40,977 nucleotides of DNA from a virus (Duplodnaviria; Heunggongvirae; Uroviricota; Caudoviricetes): IMG/VR virus record IMGVR_UViG_2563366910_000001. One strand, written 5' to 3'. Shown here piece by piece: positions 4,174-15,880 of the stretch (positions are counted from its first letter, which is position 1; each line of letters opens with the position of its first letter). A model generated the notes under the pieces. It had not been told where the DNA came from, did not search any database, and saw only the letters and a list, made by a program, of their open reading frames with translations. A program made the position numbers and the translations under genes.

Positions 4174-4245
4174 TGAAGTGGTTTACTGAATTTGGCCACC
4201 TGAACAGAGGTGATATGCTCACCTCAGAACAACACAGGTGCCATA

Positions 4246-5393
<1,148 letters not shown>

Positions 5394-5457: not shown

Positions 5458-6039
5458 ATGAACAACTCATGGTGGCAGGAACTAATGCATTTTTTCCTGC
5501 AAGGAATGACACTTAAACAGTTGATTCATATGCTAATCATCCTGATCATATTGATTATTGTTATGCCGGTAAGCGTAAAAGAATGGATAAACCTGCATAG
5601 TCCAGAAATCCTTCCTCATTACTGGATGTATTACATCCTGTTGTTTTGCGTTAGCTATGTGCTTAACGGCGTTGTTAATTCCGCTTATCACGCTGTGACT
5701 GAAAGAATTGAGGTATTCGCTGCTCAGAAGCGCAAATCTAAAGAAGAAAAATATGTGCAAGATTTGTTTGATTCGTTAACTCTTGGAGAAAGAGCGTATT
5801 TGGCATTCGCTGTAGCCGCTAATAACCAGCTACAAACGGAAAAGGGCGCTCATGAATCAATTTCATTGCTCAAAAAAGGACTCCTCGTTCGAAGGCCTCC
5901 TGCTGTTGGATATCCTGATACCGACCGTTTCGTTATCCCTGAAAGCTATAGACATGAGTGCTACATTAGGTTTGCCGGGAAGGCAGACAGCCTTATGGAT
6001 GAACTTATCGCTCAGGATAAGCATGGCAAAAACAAGTAA
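5458..6039 (+). CDS. sieB: Superinfection exclusion protein B-like membrane protein
   Basis: 193-aa ORF with a hydrophobic N-terminal region (LIHMLIILIILIIVMPV...YYILLFCVSYVL). Rightward gene convergent with N, immediately left of it, which is the sieB position in lambda. AT-rich. Confidence 0.5.
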   Translation: MNNSWWQELMHFFLQGMTLKQLIHMLIILIILIIVMPVSVKEWINLHSPEILPHYWMYYILLFCVSYVLNGVVNSAYHAVTERIEVFAAQKRKSKEEKYVQDLFDSLTLGERAYLAFAVAANNQLQTEKGAHESISLLKKGLLVRRPPAVGYPDTDRFVIPESYRHECYIRFAGKADSLMDELIAQDKHGKNK

Positions 6040-6055
6040 TTAGCAAATGAATTTA

Positions 6056-6328
6056 TCATCTCGCCGTCAGTTGTTTTGATTTCCGGTAGCCTGCCGCGTA
6101 AAGAGCTACGTTCGGAAGACAAGTTGAACCTTCATATTTTCTGGTCAACGTTGTCAGAGTTATCACTTCTGCTCTCATTGCTGGTTTGAGCTTGCATTGC
6201 AAGACCACTCGTGAAGGGGTTGGCCTGTGTAGCTTGTCGGAGCTGATCGCCTCCTGACTTTGCAGATTTGCGCGACGAGCTCTACGGCGAGAAGCTGCGG
6301 TGCCTTTAAATTCTGTTTTTCTGGACAT
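6056..6328 (-). CDS. N: N-like transcription antitermination protein (arginine-rich motif)
   Basis: Proposed start MSRKTEFKGTAASRRRARRANLQ carries an arginine-rich motif near the N-terminus, like the boxB-binding motifs of lambda/21 N. First gene leftward of the pL/nutL region; RBS GGAGG upstream of the ATG at 6326-6328. Confidence 0.6.
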   Translation of the reverse strand: MSRKTEFKGTAASRRRARRANLQSQEAISSDKLHRPTPSRVVLQCKLKPAMRAEVITLTTLTRKYEGSTCLPNVALYAAGYRKSKQLTAR

Positions 6329-6426
6329 GGATTCCTCCCGAATAAACTTTGGCGATGCAATCTCGAAGCTCCTCCTGAGACGGTTGCTTCGGCATTGCAT
6401 CCCACAGCTTATGTGGTTGGGTGATC

Positions 6427-6471
6427 TGGCTTTTCAGCCACGTAGTCGAGAGTCGACGTTGTTTAAAGAGC
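6427..6471 (-). promoter_or_regulatory. nutL candidate (boxA GCTCTTTAA + boxB hairpin TGGCTGAAAAGCCA)
   Basis: On the minus strand: boxA-like GGCTCTTTAA (6463-6472), a 22-nt spacer, then a 5-bp stem with GAAA loop (6427-6440). Same architecture and spacer motif (AACAACG...CTACG) as the nutR candidate. Confidence 0.5.
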
Positions 6472-6519
6472 CTGCCAGTCTGTTCCATTTGGCTTCCAGC
6501 GTCCTGCTGACGGTTAAAT

Positions 6520-6620
6520 AGTACGATATGTACTTTACAAGATCAATACAATTTGTTGTAAGTTGGCGTGGTTTTTTATAACGCTTTGTATTTAATAGTG
6601 TTGTTTTTTAGCGTGGATGT
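6520..6620 (-). promoter_or_regulatory. Putative pL promoter / OL operator region
   Basis: AT-rich region upstream of nutL/N with short palindromes (AGTACGATATGTACT; ATACAATTTGTTGTA) resembling the TACA/TGTA half-sites between cI and cro. Exact sites not resolved. Confidence 0.3.
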
Positions 6621-6732
6621 ATTGCCTCGGCGATGTAAGGAGAGATCAGAATTGCGTGGTTTAGTGGGTTGCATCTATTTATTTTTCAATAAATATAATT
6701 GGTTATGTGTTTTTAGGTGGGCGAACGTGAGG

Positions 6733-6759
6733 CAAAGAAAACCCGGCGCTGAGGCCGGG
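6733..6759 (-). terminator. Rho-independent terminator after the cI-linked operon (tImm-like)
   Basis: Minus strand: CCCGGCCUCAGCGCCGGG hairpin followed by UUUUCUUU, 6 nt downstream of the stop of gene 6765..7517. Confidence 0.5.
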
Positions 6760-6764
6760 TTGTA

Positions 6765-7517
6765 TTATGCTGCAAGTCTCTTAACCCAAGTCTCTCTTTT
6801 GGAGAATGGTAGAACTTGGCTTGATTCATGGAAGAGTAAGGAGAGTTGTTGCATTTGATCACCAATTGCTTCGCTGTCTATAACAACAAATCTGTTGTTA
6901 TACTCCTCACTTGAAGCTTTAAGATCAATTAGTTTCCCAAGCAATGAGTAAGCACTATTCCAGCTTCCTCCGTGTTTCACGCTTGATGTAAAAACGTATT
7001 TAGGTATGTCGGTTTTTATTGTTACAGGGACGGTAATTTGATGTCCACTCAAGCCATATACGTTTTCACGAAGAGAAAGTGCGTCTCTAAGCTCTGTGTG
7101 ATATAGATAATCAATAACCATACTTTCAAACTTTTCAGCTTGAACTGGCTGATACCAGTCTAACGACAAAGTTGATGCGAGTATACCAGCTCTAATTATG
7201 TTCGATGTAATCGCACCGACATCCTTTTCTGTTGCCCAAGCAATGATTTCTCCTCGAGCATTGAGTTCTGCGCCTTCTTTAAGCAGTAATTGTCGTATCT
7301 CATCAAGTCGTTTTTTGGTAAGCGAGATCCCTCTTGCCTCCATATTCATTAAGGCATCGCATCTGTCACTAACTAAATACCTACCATTGACTTCACGGAT
7401 AAAGGCACCGACATGCTCTCCATCATCACAGTAAGTGAATGGACTGATAATTCTCAAGGTCTTGCCTATTGGATGGCATTCGAAACCTAGTTGTGAGATC
7501 ACTGTTGAGCACATCAT
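6765..7517 (-). CDS. Hypothetical protein (250 aa), distal gene of cI-linked cassette
   Basis: ATG at 7515-7517 overlaps the upstream stop (ATGA coupling). AT-rich relative to flanking phage genes. No motif recognised. Followed by the terminator at 6733-6759. Confidence 0.6.
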   Translation of the reverse strand: MMCSTVISQLGFECHPIGKTLRIISPFTYCDDGEHVGAFIREVNGRYLVSDRCDALMNMEARGISLTKKRLDEIRQLLLKEGAELNARGEIIAWATEKDVGAITSNIIRAGILASTLSLDWYQPVQAEKFESMVIDYLYHTELRDALSLRENVYGLSGHQITVPVTIKTDIPKYVFTSSVKHGGSWNSAYSLLGKLIDLKASSEEYNNRFVVIDSEAIGDQMQQLSLLFHESSQVLPFSKRETWVKRLAA

Positions 7518-8071
7518 ATTCCAAACCCCATTTGCCCCGACTCATCTTCAAGCGGTAAAGGTATTCTCCCAGAGTAAGTTATGTTCAGATGTTTACAGAA
7601 GTAATTCCAATACCCTACCAGGTCATCTGGGTTTATGTCATCTTCGATTGGAAACGCTATTCTATCACTATAGTATCCAGCTTCTTCATAGTATACATGG
7701 TAGTGAGCACCGTAAATGATATCTTGGTACTTCGGATGATCGACCTTGTAACTATTCGTGTGTTTGTCAAAGTGATAGGTATCTACCGCGAAAACCCTCT
7801 TGTTATGATAGAAAGCAATAATATTTATTTTAGGGTAAGAAATCGGGTCATCAGGTTCTGAATCCTGATCTGGTTTCCATTTCAGTTCAAACTTTAGCCC
7901 TTGTATAGGTATACAATCCTCATCCAAGGGGATGATATGGGCTTGTAGCCACATATCAGAGCGACTTGGTTTCTGTTTCCATTTAACGCCAGAAAAGTTA
8001 ACTATTTTTTTACAATAAAGTACTTTATCAACTTCTACTTGGCTTGGCTGATAATCATCTATTTTTGCCAA
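7514..8071 (-). CDS. Hypothetical protein (185 aa), proximal gene of cI-linked cassette
   Basis: ORF begins 39 nt after the cI stop. The only start at the 5' end is TTG (8069-8071) with a weak SD; the next in-frame ATG is at 7954. AT-rich, His/Tyr/Asp-rich C-terminal half. No motif recognised. Confidence 0.5.
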   Translation of the reverse strand: MAKIDDYQPSQVEVDKVLYCKKIVNFSGVKWKQKPSRSDMWLQAHIIPLDEDCIPIQGLKFELKWKPDQDSEPDDPISYPKINIIAFYHNKRVFAVDTYHFDKHTNSYKVDHPKYQDIIYGAHYHVYYEEAGYYSDRIAFPIEDDINPDDLVGYWNYFCKHLNITYSGRIPLPLEDESGQMGFGI

Positions 8072-8110
8072 TGTTTACCGCCCTGTAAATTGTAGATAAA
8101 AGTGGTTTCA

Positions 8111-8764
8111 TCACCCAAACGTCTCTTCAGGCCATTGGCTGGCGATAACTTTCCCCACAACGGAACAACTCTCATTGCATGGGATCATTGGGTATTGTGG
8201 GTTTAGTGGCTGTAGAAACACCTGACCGCTATCCCTGATCAGTTTCTTGAAGGTAAATTCATCACCACCAAGTCTGGCTATGCAGAAATCGCCGGGCTCA
8301 ACAGCTTGCTCAGGGTCAACCAGAATTAACATCCCGTCAGGAAAGCTGGGTTTGGAACCTGTTGGTGCGGTCATTGAGTTACCTTCAACCTCAAGCCAGA
8401 ATGCAGAGTCACTGGCTTTTTTGGTTGTGCTTACCAATCTCTCCGCATCGCCTTTGGTAAAGGTTCTGAGTTCTGGAGAGAACATCCCAGCCTGAACATG
8501 AGAAAAAACAGGGTACTCATATTGTTTTTTAACTGGGGCCGATGAGTATTCGCCAACAGGTGAAAATGTCCCGTCGTGGTTGAATGATATGTTATCAATA
8601 CCAAGGTATTTAAACACCACACCAATATCACTAAGAGATGGATGACGAGATCCGCGCAACCAGTGTCCAATCCCACCCTGCGTCATACCTAGCTCTTCGG
8701 CTAACTTCTCTTGAGTTATGCCGAGCTCTTTCATTCTGGATCTAGCCAGTTCATACCATTTCAT
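8111..8764 (-). CDS. cI: CI-type prophage repressor (HTH_XRE + S24 LexA-like peptidase domain)
   Basis: N-terminal HTH ([20 protein letters not shown]) and a C-terminal S24 autocleavage domain. Start chosen at ATG 8762-8764 (AAGGA 7 nt upstream); alternative starts at 8770, 8806 and 8812. Confidence 0.85.
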
Positions 8765-8881
8765 TTTCATGTCCTTATTATTACGCTCTGTACTGGAACC
8801 ATCCATGCACAATGTGTATTTTTACTTGTATTCGCAAAGTACATATTGTATTTTTTTATTCGTGTTTACTATGGAGGGCAT
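8765..8881. promoter_or_regulatory. Divergent PRM/PR promoter and OR operator region
   Basis: 117-bp AT-rich intergenic region between divergent cI and cro, with repeated ACA-n3-TGT palindromes (ACAATGTGT 8809-8817; TACATATTGTA 8841-8851). Confidence 0.45.
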
Positions 8882-9107: not shown

Positions 9108-9153
9108 CGCTCTTTGTAACAACGGACATTCGTCCTACGTCGCTGAAAAGCGA
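9108..9153 (+). promoter_or_regulatory. nutR candidate (boxA CGCTCTTTG + boxB hairpin TCGCTGAAAAGCGA)
   Basis: boxA-like CGCTCTTT at 9108-9115, a 23-24 nt spacer, then a 5-bp stem with GAAA loop at 9140-9153. Mirrors the nutL candidate. Confidence 0.5.
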
Positions 9154-9238
9154 GTTCCAAGATATCTGACCAACTAAGGCCATATGCGTTTCCACGCATA
9201 CCTTTCAACTAACTATTCACTATTGGAAATCTTAAGAA

Positions 9239-9535
9239 ATGGAAAGAACAAGTTACAGCAAACTATCACAGCGTGACGTTGATCGCGCAGAAACAGATTT
9301 ACTTATCAATCTGTCAGCTATTACCCAGCGCGGTCTGGCAAAGATGATTGGCTGTCATGAATCGAAGATAAGCAGAACGGACTGGAGATTTATTGCTTCG
9401 GTCTTGTGTGCTTTCGGAATGGCATCAGACATCAGTCCGATTAGCAGGGCTTTTAAGTATGCGCTTGATGGACTCACCAATAAAAAACGCCCGGCGGCAA
9501 CCGAGCGTTCTGAACAAATCCAGATGGAATTCTGA
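9239..9535 (+). CDS. cII: CII transcriptional activator
   Basis: 98-aa ORF whose C-terminus LTNKKRPAATERSEQIQMEF matches lambda CII as recalled; HTH present; located between cro and O. Confidence 0.88.
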   Translation: MERTSYSKLSQRDVDRAETDLLINLSAITQRGLAKMIGCHESKISRTDWRFIASVLCAFGMASDISPISRAFKYALDGLTNKKRPAATERSEQIQMEF

Positions 9536-9557
9536 GGTCATTACTGGATCAATCCAC
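9481..9557 (-). ncRNA. oop: OOP-like antisense RNA (approximate bounds)
   Basis: Minus-strand hairpin (complement of 9487-9509) followed by a U-run, antisense to the cII 3' end. This is the position of OOP RNA and its terminator in lambda. The 5' end is inferred from the lambda length (~77 nt), not observed. Confidence 0.5.
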
Positions 9558-9567
9558 AGGAGTCATT

Positions 9568-14370: not shown

Positions 14371-15453
14371 TTAGAACTGATAAACCAGACCTACAGCGAC
14401 GATGTCGTCGGTATCAATACCAGCTGTTTTGGTAAACTTACTATCGTCAATTAAGTTGATTTTGTAATCAACAAAAGTGGACATGTTTTTATTAAAGTAG
14501 TAAGTAGCACCGACATCGACATACTTGACTAAGTCTCGGTCACCATGAACACCAAGGTCTTTACCTTTTGACTGAAGGTAAGCAACAGATGGACGCAGAC
14601 CGAAGTCAAACTGATATTGTGCTACTGCTTCAAAGTTTTGTGCTTTGTTTGCAATATGGTTATTACCAAAAACGGTCATATTCTGAGTTTCAGAATATGT
14701 GGTAGCCAGATAGATATTGTTCGCATCATATTTCAGGCCTGCAGCCCATACTTCCGCATTTTTGCCGGAGGCATTGAATTTGCTCTTACCATAGGCGACC
14801 TGACCGTCAGTGCGATCTGATTTAGCATAGGTTGCACCCACGCCGAATCCTTCATACTCATAAGTAGTGGAGAAACCGAAACCATCACCATTGGCTTCAG
14901 TTACGTCAGTGCGGTCATTTTTACCCTGATACTGAGCAGCAAAGTTCAGGCCATCGACCAGACCAAAGAAGTCGTTGTTACGATAAGTTGCAACACCAGT
15001 AGTGCGACCAGTCATGAACACATCTGTTTGGGTCCAGGTATCACCACCGAATTCTGGCAGAACGTCAGTCCACGCACCGATGTCGTATGCTACACCGTAG
15101 TTACGGCCGTAATCGATTGAGCCGTAATCACCAAATTTCAGGCCTGCAAATGCAAGACGGGTTTTGTCTTTGGAAGAACCTTGAGATTCAGCACGGTTGC
15201 CTTTGAATTCATATTCCCACTGACCGAAACCAGTCAGTTGATCGTTGATTTGGGTTTCACCTTTGAAGCCAAGACGGGCATAAGTAGTATCACCATCATC
15301 TGCATCATTAGAGGAGAAGTAGTGCTTGGCATTAACTTTCCCGTATAGATCCAGCTTGTTACTGTCTTTATTATAAATTTCAGCTGCCTGAGCAGACATC
15401 GCCATCAGTACTGATGCAGCTACAGCAGAAATTGCCACTGTTAATTTTTTCAT
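14371..15453 (-). CDS. nmpC: Outer-membrane porin, OmpC/NmpC/Lc family (phage-encoded)
   Basis: 360-aa protein with signal peptide ([23 protein letters not shown]), AEIYNKD start of the mature protein, and the C-terminal ...VGLVYQF beta-barrel signature of general porins. Antisense to the late transcript, between Q and the lysis genes as in DLP12/PA-2. Confidence 0.9.
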
Positions 15454-15880
15454 TGTACGCCCTTTTTTTGAACTTTTATTAAAAAATGATGTCACTGCGC
15501 GATAAATATTCATCTAATCAATGTGATTATTTCAAGATGTAAGTTTTAGTTTCTCATTTAATTTGTGAAGTAGATCTCTATTTTTATCTGAACCTTTTCT
15601 ATCTAATCCTATTCATGGCTCTTGTCTGAACAAAAATAAATCTATTAGCTAATTTATATTAATGGCACTTATTTATAAGTGCTCTATAATTCTTTAGCTT
15701 AATTTAAACAAACTAAAAATAACATCGGAAATTATTAACTGGTTATTTGTTGAAGCTTTCTTATGCATTTGTGGTGGTGTTTTGAACACTCGGTGGCATT
15801 CTCACAAATATCATTTAGTAGTTTACGTACGTAAAAAATTGGTTATGCTGTTAAGAGTGGTTACTTCGTCACACAGCTTA

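What the first reader, a model, noticed from the sequence alone, without database searches (positions are those of the whole stretch)
6765..8071. Uncharacterised two-gene cassette in the cI-to-pL (rexAB) slot: candidate lysogen-expressed anti-phage system
Two translationally coupled genes (185 aa then 250 aa, ATGA overlap at 7514-7517) lie directly downstream of cI on the same strand. They end in an intrinsic terminator (6733-6759) just before the pL/nutL region. This is the architecture of lambda cI-rexA-rexB-tImm, and in lambdoid phages that slot holds lysogen-expressed exclusion or abortive-infection genes. Both genes are visibly more AT-rich than the flanking phage genes, suggesting separate acquisition. 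Neither protein has a motif I can assign: no kinase, nuclease or HTH signature, and no clear transmembrane segments, so they do not look like RexB-type channels. The first gene has only a TTG start.
Basis: partly seen in the sequence, partly recalled or inferred. Interest (0 to 1): 0.85.

Follow-up and report, generated by a model that had tools for sequence, protein, structure and literature searches.

The report
Untested defence-like gene pair replacing rexAB
A lambda-like prophage (the one in E. coli Nissle 1917) carries, exactly where phage lambda keeps its rexA-rexB exclusion genes, a conserved pair of uncharacterised genes that two published computational screens flag as probable anti-phage defence, but no study I could read has tested it.

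Summary
Two overlapping minus-strand genes, A (7514-8071, 185 aa, TTG start) and B (6765-7517, 250 aa), lie 39 nt downstream of cI and end at a hairpin terminator.

Alignment with phage lambda shows homology up to the cI stop codon and again from the tImm hairpin. The cassette is therefore a base-exact replacement of rexA-rexB.

The A-B pair is conserved across Enterobacterales, Aeromonas and Pasteurellaceae. It almost always sits just downstream of an S24 repressor, whichever repressor that is. About 5.5% of complete E. coli genomes carry one of two variants.

- **B:** DUF1828 (a type III secretion chaperone/YbjN-like fold) plus DUF1829 (a PD-(D/E)xK-like fold lacking the canonical acidic residues).
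- **A:** a small beta-rich protein with no fold match, an invariant Asp/His/Asn cluster and a non-ATG start in every lineage examined.

Both proteins weakly match PADLOC's untested candidate PDC-M24. Both exact proteins are listed as "Predicted novel defense gene" in DefensePredictor's tables but are absent from its screening table.

Verdict: a real, lysogen-expressed candidate defence operon. It has already been predicted computationally, and its function and mechanism are unproven.

The parts
8111..8806 (-). cI repressor. RefSeq starts it at ATG 8806; the ORF is open back to TTG 8812. It has an HTH N-terminal domain and an S24 C-terminal domain that is nearly identical in DNA to the lambda cI C-terminal domain.
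   Evidence: Pfam Peptidase_S24 (E 1e-28) and HTH_3. Alignment with lambda and with an imm-lambda prophage. RefSeq annotation in E. coli Nissle 1917.
8072..8110 (-). 39-nt spacer between the cI stop codon and the start of gene A. No terminator-like site was found here. Homology with lambda ends at the cI stop codon.
   Evidence: A promoter-like match at 8089-8061 is no better than the shuffled expectation.
7514..8071 (-). Gene A: 185 aa, TTG start, acidic, beta-rich, with no known fold. Invariant across the family: K22, W31, R92, D97, N106, G121, H123, H125, F158, P173. H104 is nearly invariant. The C-terminal tail is conserved in close homologues but modelled at low confidence.
   Evidence: Weak matches to DUF6978 and PDC-M24A. 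RefSeq WP_001062368.1.
7514..7517 (-). ATGA overlap: the stop of A and the start of B share these bases, which suggests translational coupling.
   Evidence: The same ATGA junction occurs in the Klebsiella-type and Aeromonas loci. Other loci show 4- to 13-nt overlaps, one locus a 1-nt overlap and one a 10-nt gap.
6765..7517 (-). Gene B: 250 aa. Residues about 1-116 are DUF1828 with a YbjN / type III secretion chaperone-like fold. Residues about 129-250 are DUF1829 with a PD-(D/E)xK-like fold that lacks the canonical acidic catalytic residues.
6732..6761 (-). Intrinsic terminator homologous to lambda tImm. Homology with lambda resumes at its first base.
   Evidence: Similar hairpins follow B in the enterobacterial loci examined.
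6516..6560 (-). OL operator-like sequence and probable pL. It shares AAAGTACATAT with the cI-cro intergenic region at 8836-8856.
   Evidence: The promoter assignment is inferred from position.
6423..6445 (-). nutL boxB-like hairpin, paired as an inverted repeat with nutR at 9135-9157.
   Evidence: N gene at 6056-6400 (Pfam N_peptide, E 1e-32).

Best explanation
**What it most likely is.** The cassette is a prophage 'moron' operon that takes the place of lambda rexA-rexB.

**Expression (inferred).** It is most likely transcribed together with cI in the lysogen, by read-through from PRM and, during establishment, from PRE. Transcription would stop at the tImm-like terminator.

**Function (inferred).** It most likely encodes a cytoplasmic two-protein system that protects the lysogen against superinfecting phages.

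**Proposed division of labour (inferred, low confidence).**
- A is the effector. It carries an invariant Asp/His/Asn cluster (D97, H104, N106, H123, H125) that could be a metal or catalytic site. Its synthesis is kept low by a non-ATG start codon, which is conserved in every lineage examined.
- B is the sensor or restrainer. Its N-terminal domain resembles type III secretion chaperones and YbjN, and could hold A, possibly through A's conserved flexible C-terminal tail. It could instead bind a phage protein.
- B's C-terminal DUF1829 domain has a degenerate PD-(D/E)xK fold. It could bind DNA, or perhaps cut it using non-canonical residues.
- Infection would release or activate the effector. The result would be a block to phage development or an abortive infection.

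**Shown here:** gene structure, exact placement, conservation of the pair, fold assignments and family relationships.

**Inferred:** expression in the lysogen, the defence role and the roles of each protein.
For: **Placement.** Homology to lambda runs to the cI stop codon and resumes at the tImm hairpin. No terminator-like site lies between cI and A.

**Conservation of the layout.** The order repressor, A, B is found with S24 repressors of 210 to 262 aa. Hosts include Klebsiella-type enterics, Aeromonas, E. coli variant 2 (including prophages with true lambda cI), Izhakiella, Yersinia, Xenorhabdus, Providencia, Rodentibacter and metagenomic contigs.

**The pair is autonomous.** One pair sits between housekeeping genes with no prophage genes nearby. 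The function therefore does not depend on a particular repressor.

**The pair is obligate.** Every A-family gene whose neighbourhood was examined is followed by a DUF1828 gene, down to 21% identity. Divergence of A and B is correlated, r = 0.95.

**Links to defence.**
- A matches PDC-M24A (E 5e-4).
- B matches PDC-M24B (E 5e-10, full length).
- PADLOC's PDC candidates, the set PDC-M24 belongs to, are cassettes found embedded in BREX, DISARM or type I RM loci.
- DefensePredictor gives mean log-odds of 5.6 for B and 4.9-5.4 for A. Its strict cut-off is 4, and 45% of its tested predictions were validated.
- DUF1829 occurs in the validated HipAD system.

**The slot is a cargo hotspot.** It holds rexAB in lambda, a 283-aa orphan in phage 2G7b and DUF3024 plus an NYN-domain protein in Stx2a phages. 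In LF82 prophage Perceval it holds a 340-aa protein plus a 168-aa transmembrane protein. Both Perceval genes are transcribed in the lysogen, at 27 and 578 against a prophage background of about 5.

**Other features.** Cassette GC is below the flanks in all seven lineages checked, as for rexAB. A starts with TTG or GTG in every lineage examined.
Against: - No experiment on this pair or on any homologue was found in the literature I could read. Brenes & Laub 2025 could not be read.
- The match of A to PDC-M24A/DUF6978 is weak and covers only the C-terminal third.
- DefensePredictor is described as using genomic context as well as sequence. Its score is therefore probably not independent of the prophage location (this point rests on my understanding of the method).
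- About half of its tested predictions did not validate.
- B lacks invariant acidic residues at the canonical PD-(D/E)xK positions, so nuclease activity is doubtful.
- A has no fold or family that indicates an activity.
- Lysogenic transcription of this particular cassette is inferred, not measured.
Confidence: 0.55

Rival explanations
1. A toxin-antitoxin-like addiction module. Its main role would be to stabilise the prophage or island through post-segregational killing, with no specific anti-phage function.
For: - Two small overlapping genes that co-evolve.
- A conserved weak start codon on the upstream gene, consistent with limiting a toxic product.
- One copy lies outside any prophage.
Against: - No match to any TA family in Pfam, NCBIfam or PADLOC.
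- Almost every copy sits in the repressor-adjacent slot where lambda keeps rexAB and related phages keep other variable cargo.
- Many TA modules also act in defence, so this rival overlaps with the main explanation.
Confidence: 0.12
2. An accessory of the lysis-lysogeny switch. The proteins would modulate repressor function or induction, as has been proposed for lambda RexA (from my own knowledge), rather than excluding other phages.
For: - Position in the cI operon.
- B has a DNA-enzyme-like fold that could bind DNA.
Against: - The same pair is coupled to many unrelated repressors and operator sets, and once occurs with no prophage at all.
- A factor that works through one repressor or its operators would be expected to co-vary with the immunity type.
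Confidence: 0.08
3. A lysogenic-conversion function unrelated to phages, such as a host stress, colonisation or virulence trait.
For: - The same prophage type carries other morons such as a porin.
- The close relative Perceval carries sitABCD.
- The cassette is common in ExPEC and commensal strains.
Against: - Both proteins are cytoplasmic with no signal peptide or transmembrane segment.
- The only family links are to defence candidates.
Confidence: 0.1
4. A counter-defence or host-takeover function that the phage uses during its own infection. It would be expressed from PRE early in infection rather than for the benefit of the lysogen.
For: cII-activated PRE transcripts would also cross the cassette. 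This is inferred from lambda's layout.
Against: - A terminator directly after B and placement inside the repressor operon fit maintenance-phase expression.
- One copy is chromosomal and not in a prophage.
Confidence: 0.05

Closest known systems
Phage lambda RexA-RexB exclusion system
   Same: - Identical genomic place: between the cI stop codon and the tImm terminator, on the cI strand.
- Two genes.
- AT-rich relative to the flanking genes.
- Presumed expression in the lysogen.
   Different: - No sequence relationship. The PADLOC RexA and RexB models hit lambda's proteins at E 1e-109 and 1e-60 but neither A nor B.
- RexB is a membrane protein (from my own knowledge); A and B have no transmembrane segment.
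- The genes overlap by ATGA instead of being separated.
PADLOC phage defence candidate PDC-M24 (cassette CAS_00098, Payne et al. 2024 preprint)
   Same: - Two-gene cassette in the same order: a DUF6978-like protein followed by a DUF1828-containing protein.
- B aligns over the full length of the PDC-M24B model (E 5e-10).
- A matches PDC-M24A weakly.
- Untested, like this pair.
   Different: - PADLOC's candidates, PDC-M24 among them, were picked because they are embedded in BREX, DISARM or type I RM loci. This branch lives in prophage immunity regions.
- A is very divergent. It scores below Pfam's DUF6978 threshold, and only its C-terminal third aligns.
- The A family is tiny: 20 clusters among 1.84 billion representative proteins.
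HipAD (DS-6), a validated two-gene defence system (DefensePredictor paper)
   Same: A two-protein system whose second protein carries a DUF1829 domain of the PD-(D/E)xK clan, as B does.
   Different: - HipAD's effector is a HipA-family kinase. A shows no kinase match.
- HipAD's partner protein pairs DUF1829 with DUF3037, not with DUF1828.
Other repressor-adjacent prophage defences, for example BstA of Salmonella phage BTP1
   Same: A prophage-borne defence gene placed beside the repressor gene and acting on heterologous phages. The placement of bstA is from my own knowledge of Owen et al. 2021 (listed); I did not re-read it here.
   Different: BstA is a single protein with its own anti-BstA self-immunity element. 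It has no homology to A or B.

Membership tests
Lambda RexAB | RexA homologue | tested here: not met
   The PADLOC RexA model hits lambda RexA at E 9e-110 but neither A nor B at E <= 1.
Lambda RexAB | RexB homologue (a membrane protein) | tested here: not met
   No RexB model hit. No hydrophobic stretch long enough for a membrane span.
Lambda RexAB | Location between cI and tImm on the cI strand | tested here: met
   Alignments with lambda.
Lambda RexAB | Co-transcription with cI in the lysogen, and exclusion of superinfecting phages | not testable with these tools
   The layout allows read-through. No expression or plaque data exist for this cassette.
PADLOC PDC-M24 | Second gene matches the PDC-M24B model | tested here: met
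   E 4.7e-10, residues 2-249 against model positions 4-254 of 256.
PADLOC PDC-M24 | First gene matches the PDC-M24A model | tested here: inconclusive
   E 4.8e-4, and only residues 104-163 against model positions 79-134 of 148. Three PDC-M24A models are each matched by only 1-3 of the 15 family members scanned.
PADLOC PDC-M24 | Adjacent genes on the same strand in the order A then B | tested here: met
PADLOC PDC-M24 | Embedded in BREX, DISARM or type I RM loci (the criterion by which PADLOC's candidates were discovered) | tested here: not met
   All loci examined are prophage immunity regions, apart from one housekeeping site and one unclassified metagenomic contig.
PD-(D/E)xK nucleases | Alpha-beta-beta-beta-alpha-beta core fold | tested here: met
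PD-(D/E)xK nucleases | Catalytic Asp on strand 2 and (D/E)xK on strand 3 | tested here: not met
   No invariant acidic residue lies on or just before strands 160-167 and 173-178. The invariant residues there are S157, G158, H159, I161, P164, K173, F176 and T177.
DUF1828-DUF1829 proteins (Pfam) | N-terminal DUF1828 domain | tested here: met
   E 5e-8, above the Pfam cut-off. All 20 aligned homologues match.
DUF1828-DUF1829 proteins (Pfam) | C-terminal DUF1829 domain | tested here: inconclusive
   hmmscan finds no DUF1829 match even at E <= 10. A published HHblits search does find it at 98.8% probability, residues 155-241.
Type II toxin-antitoxin modules | One product is toxic and the other neutralises it by binding | not testable with these tools
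   Only the gene layout (overlap, weak first start codon) is suggestive. No TA family match.
HipAD (DS-6) | HipA-family kinase as first gene | tested here: not met
   A has no kinase match in Pfam, NCBIfam or PADLOC.

The most novel reading that the evidence does not exclude
A and B form a mechanistically new kind of abortive-infection system. A would be a new-fold, metal-dependent effector enzyme held inactive through its conserved C-terminal tail by the secretion-chaperone-like domain of B. B's degenerate nuclease-fold domain would act as the sensor of incoming phage DNA or of a replication intermediate.

As a corollary, this cassette would be the 'unidentified factor' of prophage 3 that Bury et al. 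2018 proposed to explain the resistance of E. coli Nissle 1917 to lambda and Stx phages.
Probability: 0.15. Interest if true: 0.75.

Novelty: new variant of a known kind. Interest (0 to 1): 0.5.

Why it matters
If the pair is a working defence system, three things follow.

- **A new protein family in phage immunity.** It would add a family with no known fold (A), together with the DUF1828/DUF1829 architecture.
- **The rexAB position as a cargo slot.** It would show that the classic rexAB position is a general exchange point for exclusion genes in lambdoid phages of several bacterial orders.
- **A candidate for an open question in Nissle 1917.** It would offer a concrete candidate for the unexplained prophage-dependent resistance of the probiotic E. 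coli Nissle 1917 to lambda and Shiga-toxin phages.

The cassette is present in about one in twenty complete E. coli genomes, including ExPEC and O104:H4 strains. It could therefore affect phage-therapy host range and the spread of Stx phages.

If it is not a defence system, it is one more conserved prophage moron of unknown role.

Tried and rejected
**Searches that found nothing.**
1. Sequence searches of A and B against PDB, as single sequences and as profiles, gave nothing credible.
3. hmmscan of B and 19 homologues did not detect DUF1829 or any nuclease family. The assignment rests on fold and on a published HHblits result.
4. NCBIfam gave nothing.
5. Rfam found no RNA family in the window. 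The promoter-like matches were no more numerous than in shuffled sequence.

**An apparent hit rejected as an artefact.**
The profile of A seemed to hit the designed Kelch-like protein SAKe6 at E 3e-12. This comes from summing six identical weak repeat matches of about 7 bits each.

**Searches for distant relatives that failed.**
- Three single-protein scans of genome or viral contigs found no relatives.
- Direct contig look-ups then worked for four distant members.

**Literature.**
- No held paper discusses DUF1828, DUF6978 or PDC-M24 functionally, or cites the RefSeq accessions.
- The supplements of Vassallo et al. 2022 do not list the proteins.
- Brenes & Laub 2025 is not held. I cannot exclude that it tested this pair.

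**Transcription data from a relative.**
LF82 prophage Perceval was checked as a possible source of expression data. It carries different genes in the slot, so it supports expression of the slot only, not of this cassette.

**Hypotheses about A considered and dropped.**
Full report
**1. The observation**

The two minus-strand ORFs exist exactly as described. Gene A runs 7514..8071 (185 aa). TTG at 8071 is the first possible start after the upstream stop. Gene B runs 6765..7517 (250 aa, ATG start). The two share an ATGA overlap at 7514-7517.

They follow cI (8111..8806; Peptidase_S24 E 1e-28 plus HTH_3) after a 39-nt gap. The scan found no terminator-like site in that gap.

Four bases after B's stop codon comes the hairpin AACCCGGCC/GGCCGGGTT with a T-rich tail (6761-6732). 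It folds at -17.2 kcal/mol, z = -2.3.

Further downstream on the same strand lie:
- an operator-like sequence shared with the cI-cro intergenic region (6516-6536 and 8836-8856);
- a nutL/nutR inverted pair (6423-6445 and 9135-9157);
- the N gene at 6056-6400.

A and B are AT-rich. GC is 0.38 and 0.41, and GC3 is 0.36 and 0.34. For comparison, cI is 0.46/0.44, O and P have GC 0.47-0.53, and the window is 0.506. Neither protein has a hydrophobic stretch long enough to span a membrane.

**2. Exact placement**

I aligned the window with phage lambda (NC_001416). DNA homology runs through the C-terminal domain of cI up to its stop codon and then stops. It starts again at the first base of the terminator hairpin. 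That hairpin is lambda's tImm, and the sequence continues nearly identical for about 100 nt.

The segment 6762-8110 is therefore a base-exact replacement of lambda rexA-rexB.

A second, divergent version of the pair (A' 180 aa with a GTG start, B' 258 aa; 41% and about 50% identical) occupies the same place. Some of the prophages carrying it have the true lambda cI protein.

**3. Conservation and distribution**

- The exact cassette is in 239 of 5,426 complete E. coli genomes. These include Nissle 1917, the type strain ATCC 11775 and NU14.
- Variant 2 is in 61 more, including O104:H4.
- The cassette is also in phages ev017, ev207, PhiR57_1 and PhiR63_2 (100% identical) and in one Stx1a phage (99.5%).
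- The window matches Nissle 1917 gene for gene around the cassette, including the neighbouring IS.

Homologous pairs were found in the following hosts.

| Host or source |
|---|
| Klebsiella/Enterobacter-type genomes |
| Aeromonas |
| Izhakiella, Yersinia, Xenorhabdus, Providencia |
| Rodentibacter |
| Metagenomic contigs |

A-family proteins alone were also recorded from Actinobacillus and Glaesserella.

In nearly every locus the order is S24 repressor, then A, then B. The repressors range from 210 to 262 aa and have different partners on the cro side. In three loci an extra DUF3024-like gene lies between the repressor and A.

One pair lies between housekeeping genes with no prophage genes in view.

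Every A-family gene whose neighbourhood I could examine is followed by a DUF1828 gene, down to 21% identity. Divergence of A and B is tightly correlated (r = 0.95 over 36 comparisons), with A evolving faster.

The A family is small. There are 20 clusters at 50% identity among 1.84 billion representative proteins, all 76-184 aa, with no fusions to other domains.

A's start codon is TTG or GTG in every lineage examined. Cassette GC lies below that of the flanking DNA in all seven lineages checked, as it does for lambda rexAB.

**4. What the proteins are**

*Protein B.* It matches Pfam DUF1828 in its N-terminal half (E 5e-8; all 20 aligned homologues match).

The AlphaFold2 model (pLDDT 81) has two domains.

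A published HHblits table gives the same split for this exact protein. It lists DUF1828 at residues 25-114 (99.5%) and DUF1829 at residues 155-241 (98.8%, clan PDDEXK).

The canonical acidic catalytic residues are not conserved. Around the second and third core strands the invariant residues are S157, G158, H159, I161, P164, K173, F176 and T177. The domain may therefore bind nucleic acid rather than cut it, or it may use an unusual active site.

The N-terminal domain has a striking invariant acidic/His cluster (D31 D32 G33 E34 H35, D51, D54, N58, E60) plus C3 and C14. I cannot explain this cluster.

Across the whole family the invariant residues are K22, W31, R92, D97, N106, G121, H123, H125, F158 and P173. 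H104 is nearly invariant. This pattern suggests a metal or catalytic site.

Its C-terminal tail (residues 173-185) is conserved in close homologues but modelled at low confidence.

A matches DUF6978 only weakly, below Pfam's threshold.

**5. Links to known or proposed defence systems**

*PADLOC.* A matches PDC-M24A (E 5e-4, partial). B matches PDC-M24B (E 5e-10, full length). PADLOC's PDC candidates were chosen because they are embedded inside BREX, DISARM or type I RM loci. PDC-M24 is one of 145 explicitly untested candidates and is recorded as a two-family cassette.

*DefensePredictor (Science 2026).* Its supplementary tables list these exact proteins, WP_001062368.1 and WP_000968518.1 (accessions), as 'Predicted novel defense gene'. 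Mean log-odds are 4.9-5.4 for A and 5.6 for B, above the paper's strict cut-off of 4. They do not appear in the table of transcription units that were cloned and screened.

Overall, 42 of the 94 predictions tested in that study were validated. The same paper reports DUF1829 as newly implicated in defence through the validated HipAD system.

*Rex.* The Rex models do not match A or B, although they match lambda's own proteins strongly.

**6. The slot is a cargo hotspot**

With similar flanks, the slot holds different genes in different phages.

| Phage or prophage | Cargo in the slot |
|---|---|
| Lambda | rexA-rexB |
| 2G7b | 283-aa protein with no family match |
| Stx2a phages | DUF3024 protein plus an NYN-domain protein |
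| LF82 Perceval | 340-aa protein plus a 168-aa transmembrane protein |

Both Perceval genes are transcribed in the lysogen. Their normalised expression is 27 and 578, against 78 for cI and about 5 for repressed prophage genes. This supports lysogenic expression of the slot in general. It does not show expression of this cassette.

**7. Most likely function**

The most likely reading is a lysogen-expressed, two-protein anti-phage system. My confidence is about 0.55 for defence, and much lower for any mechanistic detail.

I propose that A is the effector and B the sensor or restrainer. The reasons are:
- A's conserved weak start codon;
- the overlap of the two genes;
- B's chaperone-like domain;
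- A's conserved flexible tail.

All of these steps are inference.

The rivals are:
- a plain addiction module;
- a modulator of the lysis-lysogeny switch, which is disfavoured because the pair travels with many unrelated repressors and once with none;
- a moron unrelated to phages;
- a function used by the phage during its own infection.

**8. Novelty and limits**

This is not a member of the Rex family. It is best described as a divergent, prophage-borne branch of an untested candidate class (PDC-M24-like, DUF1828/DUF1829). It sits in a well-known exclusion slot.

The defence idea is already in print as a computational prediction, so the finding is not new as a hypothesis. No functional or mechanistic work was found in the library available to me. 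One directly relevant paper could not be read.

**9. Scores**

I score interest at 0.5. The pair is a concrete and easily tested candidate. It occurs in a medically relevant probiotic and includes a protein of unknown fold. However, it is one of hundreds of similar published predictions.

Noticed in passing
window 8111-8806: The cI gene looks chimeric. Its C-terminal S24 domain is nearly identical in DNA to that of lambda cI, while the N-terminal DNA-binding domain is different. This fits a different immunity specificity. A Providencia stuartii prophage repressor (L022) has a similar N-terminus (MKMKWYELA...).
   Followed up: partly
window 9193-9562: The primers that Bury et al. 2018 used to clone the 'phage repressor (pr)' of E. 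coli Nissle 1917 map here, one of them with a single mismatch. That gene lowered lambda and Stx phage plating more than 200-fold. The amplicon covers the cII-like gene (9239-9535), not cI.
   Followed up: yes
window 4210-5393: An IS3-family insertion sequence (two ORFs) lies just upstream of the sieB-like gene. In E. coli Nissle 1917 the same element is annotated as a frameshifted ISEc52-family transposase.
   Followed up: partly
window 5458-6039: A SieB-family superinfection-exclusion gene (Pfam SieB E 9e-22; phrog_1301) lies on the opposite strand next to N. The immunity region therefore carries a second exclusion-type gene.
   Followed up: partly
L017 5075-5416; L018 3104-3445; L021 3110-3451; L022 3109-3450: A 113-aa DUF3024-type gene recurs directly after the repressor with different downstream cargo. 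In Stx2a phages the cargo is an NYN-domain protein. In Izhakiella and Providencia prophages it is the A-B pair. The Pfam match was run only on the Stx2a copy; the other three were judged by sequence similarity. It may be a separate module of this slot.
   Followed up: partly
L015 4091-4942: In phage 2G7b the slot between the repressor gene and the tImm-like site holds a 283-aa protein. It has no Pfam or PADLOC match and is another uncharacterised candidate.
   Followed up: partly
L029 6001-7303: A 35%-identical A-B pair sits between housekeeping genes (an ABC substrate-binding protein and a U32 peptidase), with no prophage genes nearby. Here the two genes are separated by 10 nt rather than overlapping.
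   Followed up: partly
E. coli LF82 prophage Perceval (CU651637.1 1178432-1180797), from the supplement of PMC9928086: This close relative of ev207 carries a 340-aa protein and a 168-aa transmembrane protein after cI. The layout resembles Rex. The transmembrane gene is transcribed about 7 times more strongly than cI in the lysogen.
   Followed up: partly
window 14371-15513: A porin gene of the OmpC/NmpC type (signal peptide followed by AEIYNKD...) lies on the minus strand inside the prophage. It resembles the NmpC moron reported for Perceval.
   Followed up: no
window 6768-7517 (protein B residues 3-60): The N-terminal, chaperone-like domain of B has an unusually dense set of invariant residues: C3, E13, C14, D31, D32, G33, E34, H35, D51, D54, N58 and E60. 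This looks more like a metal or ligand site than a simple protein-binding surface.
   Followed up: no
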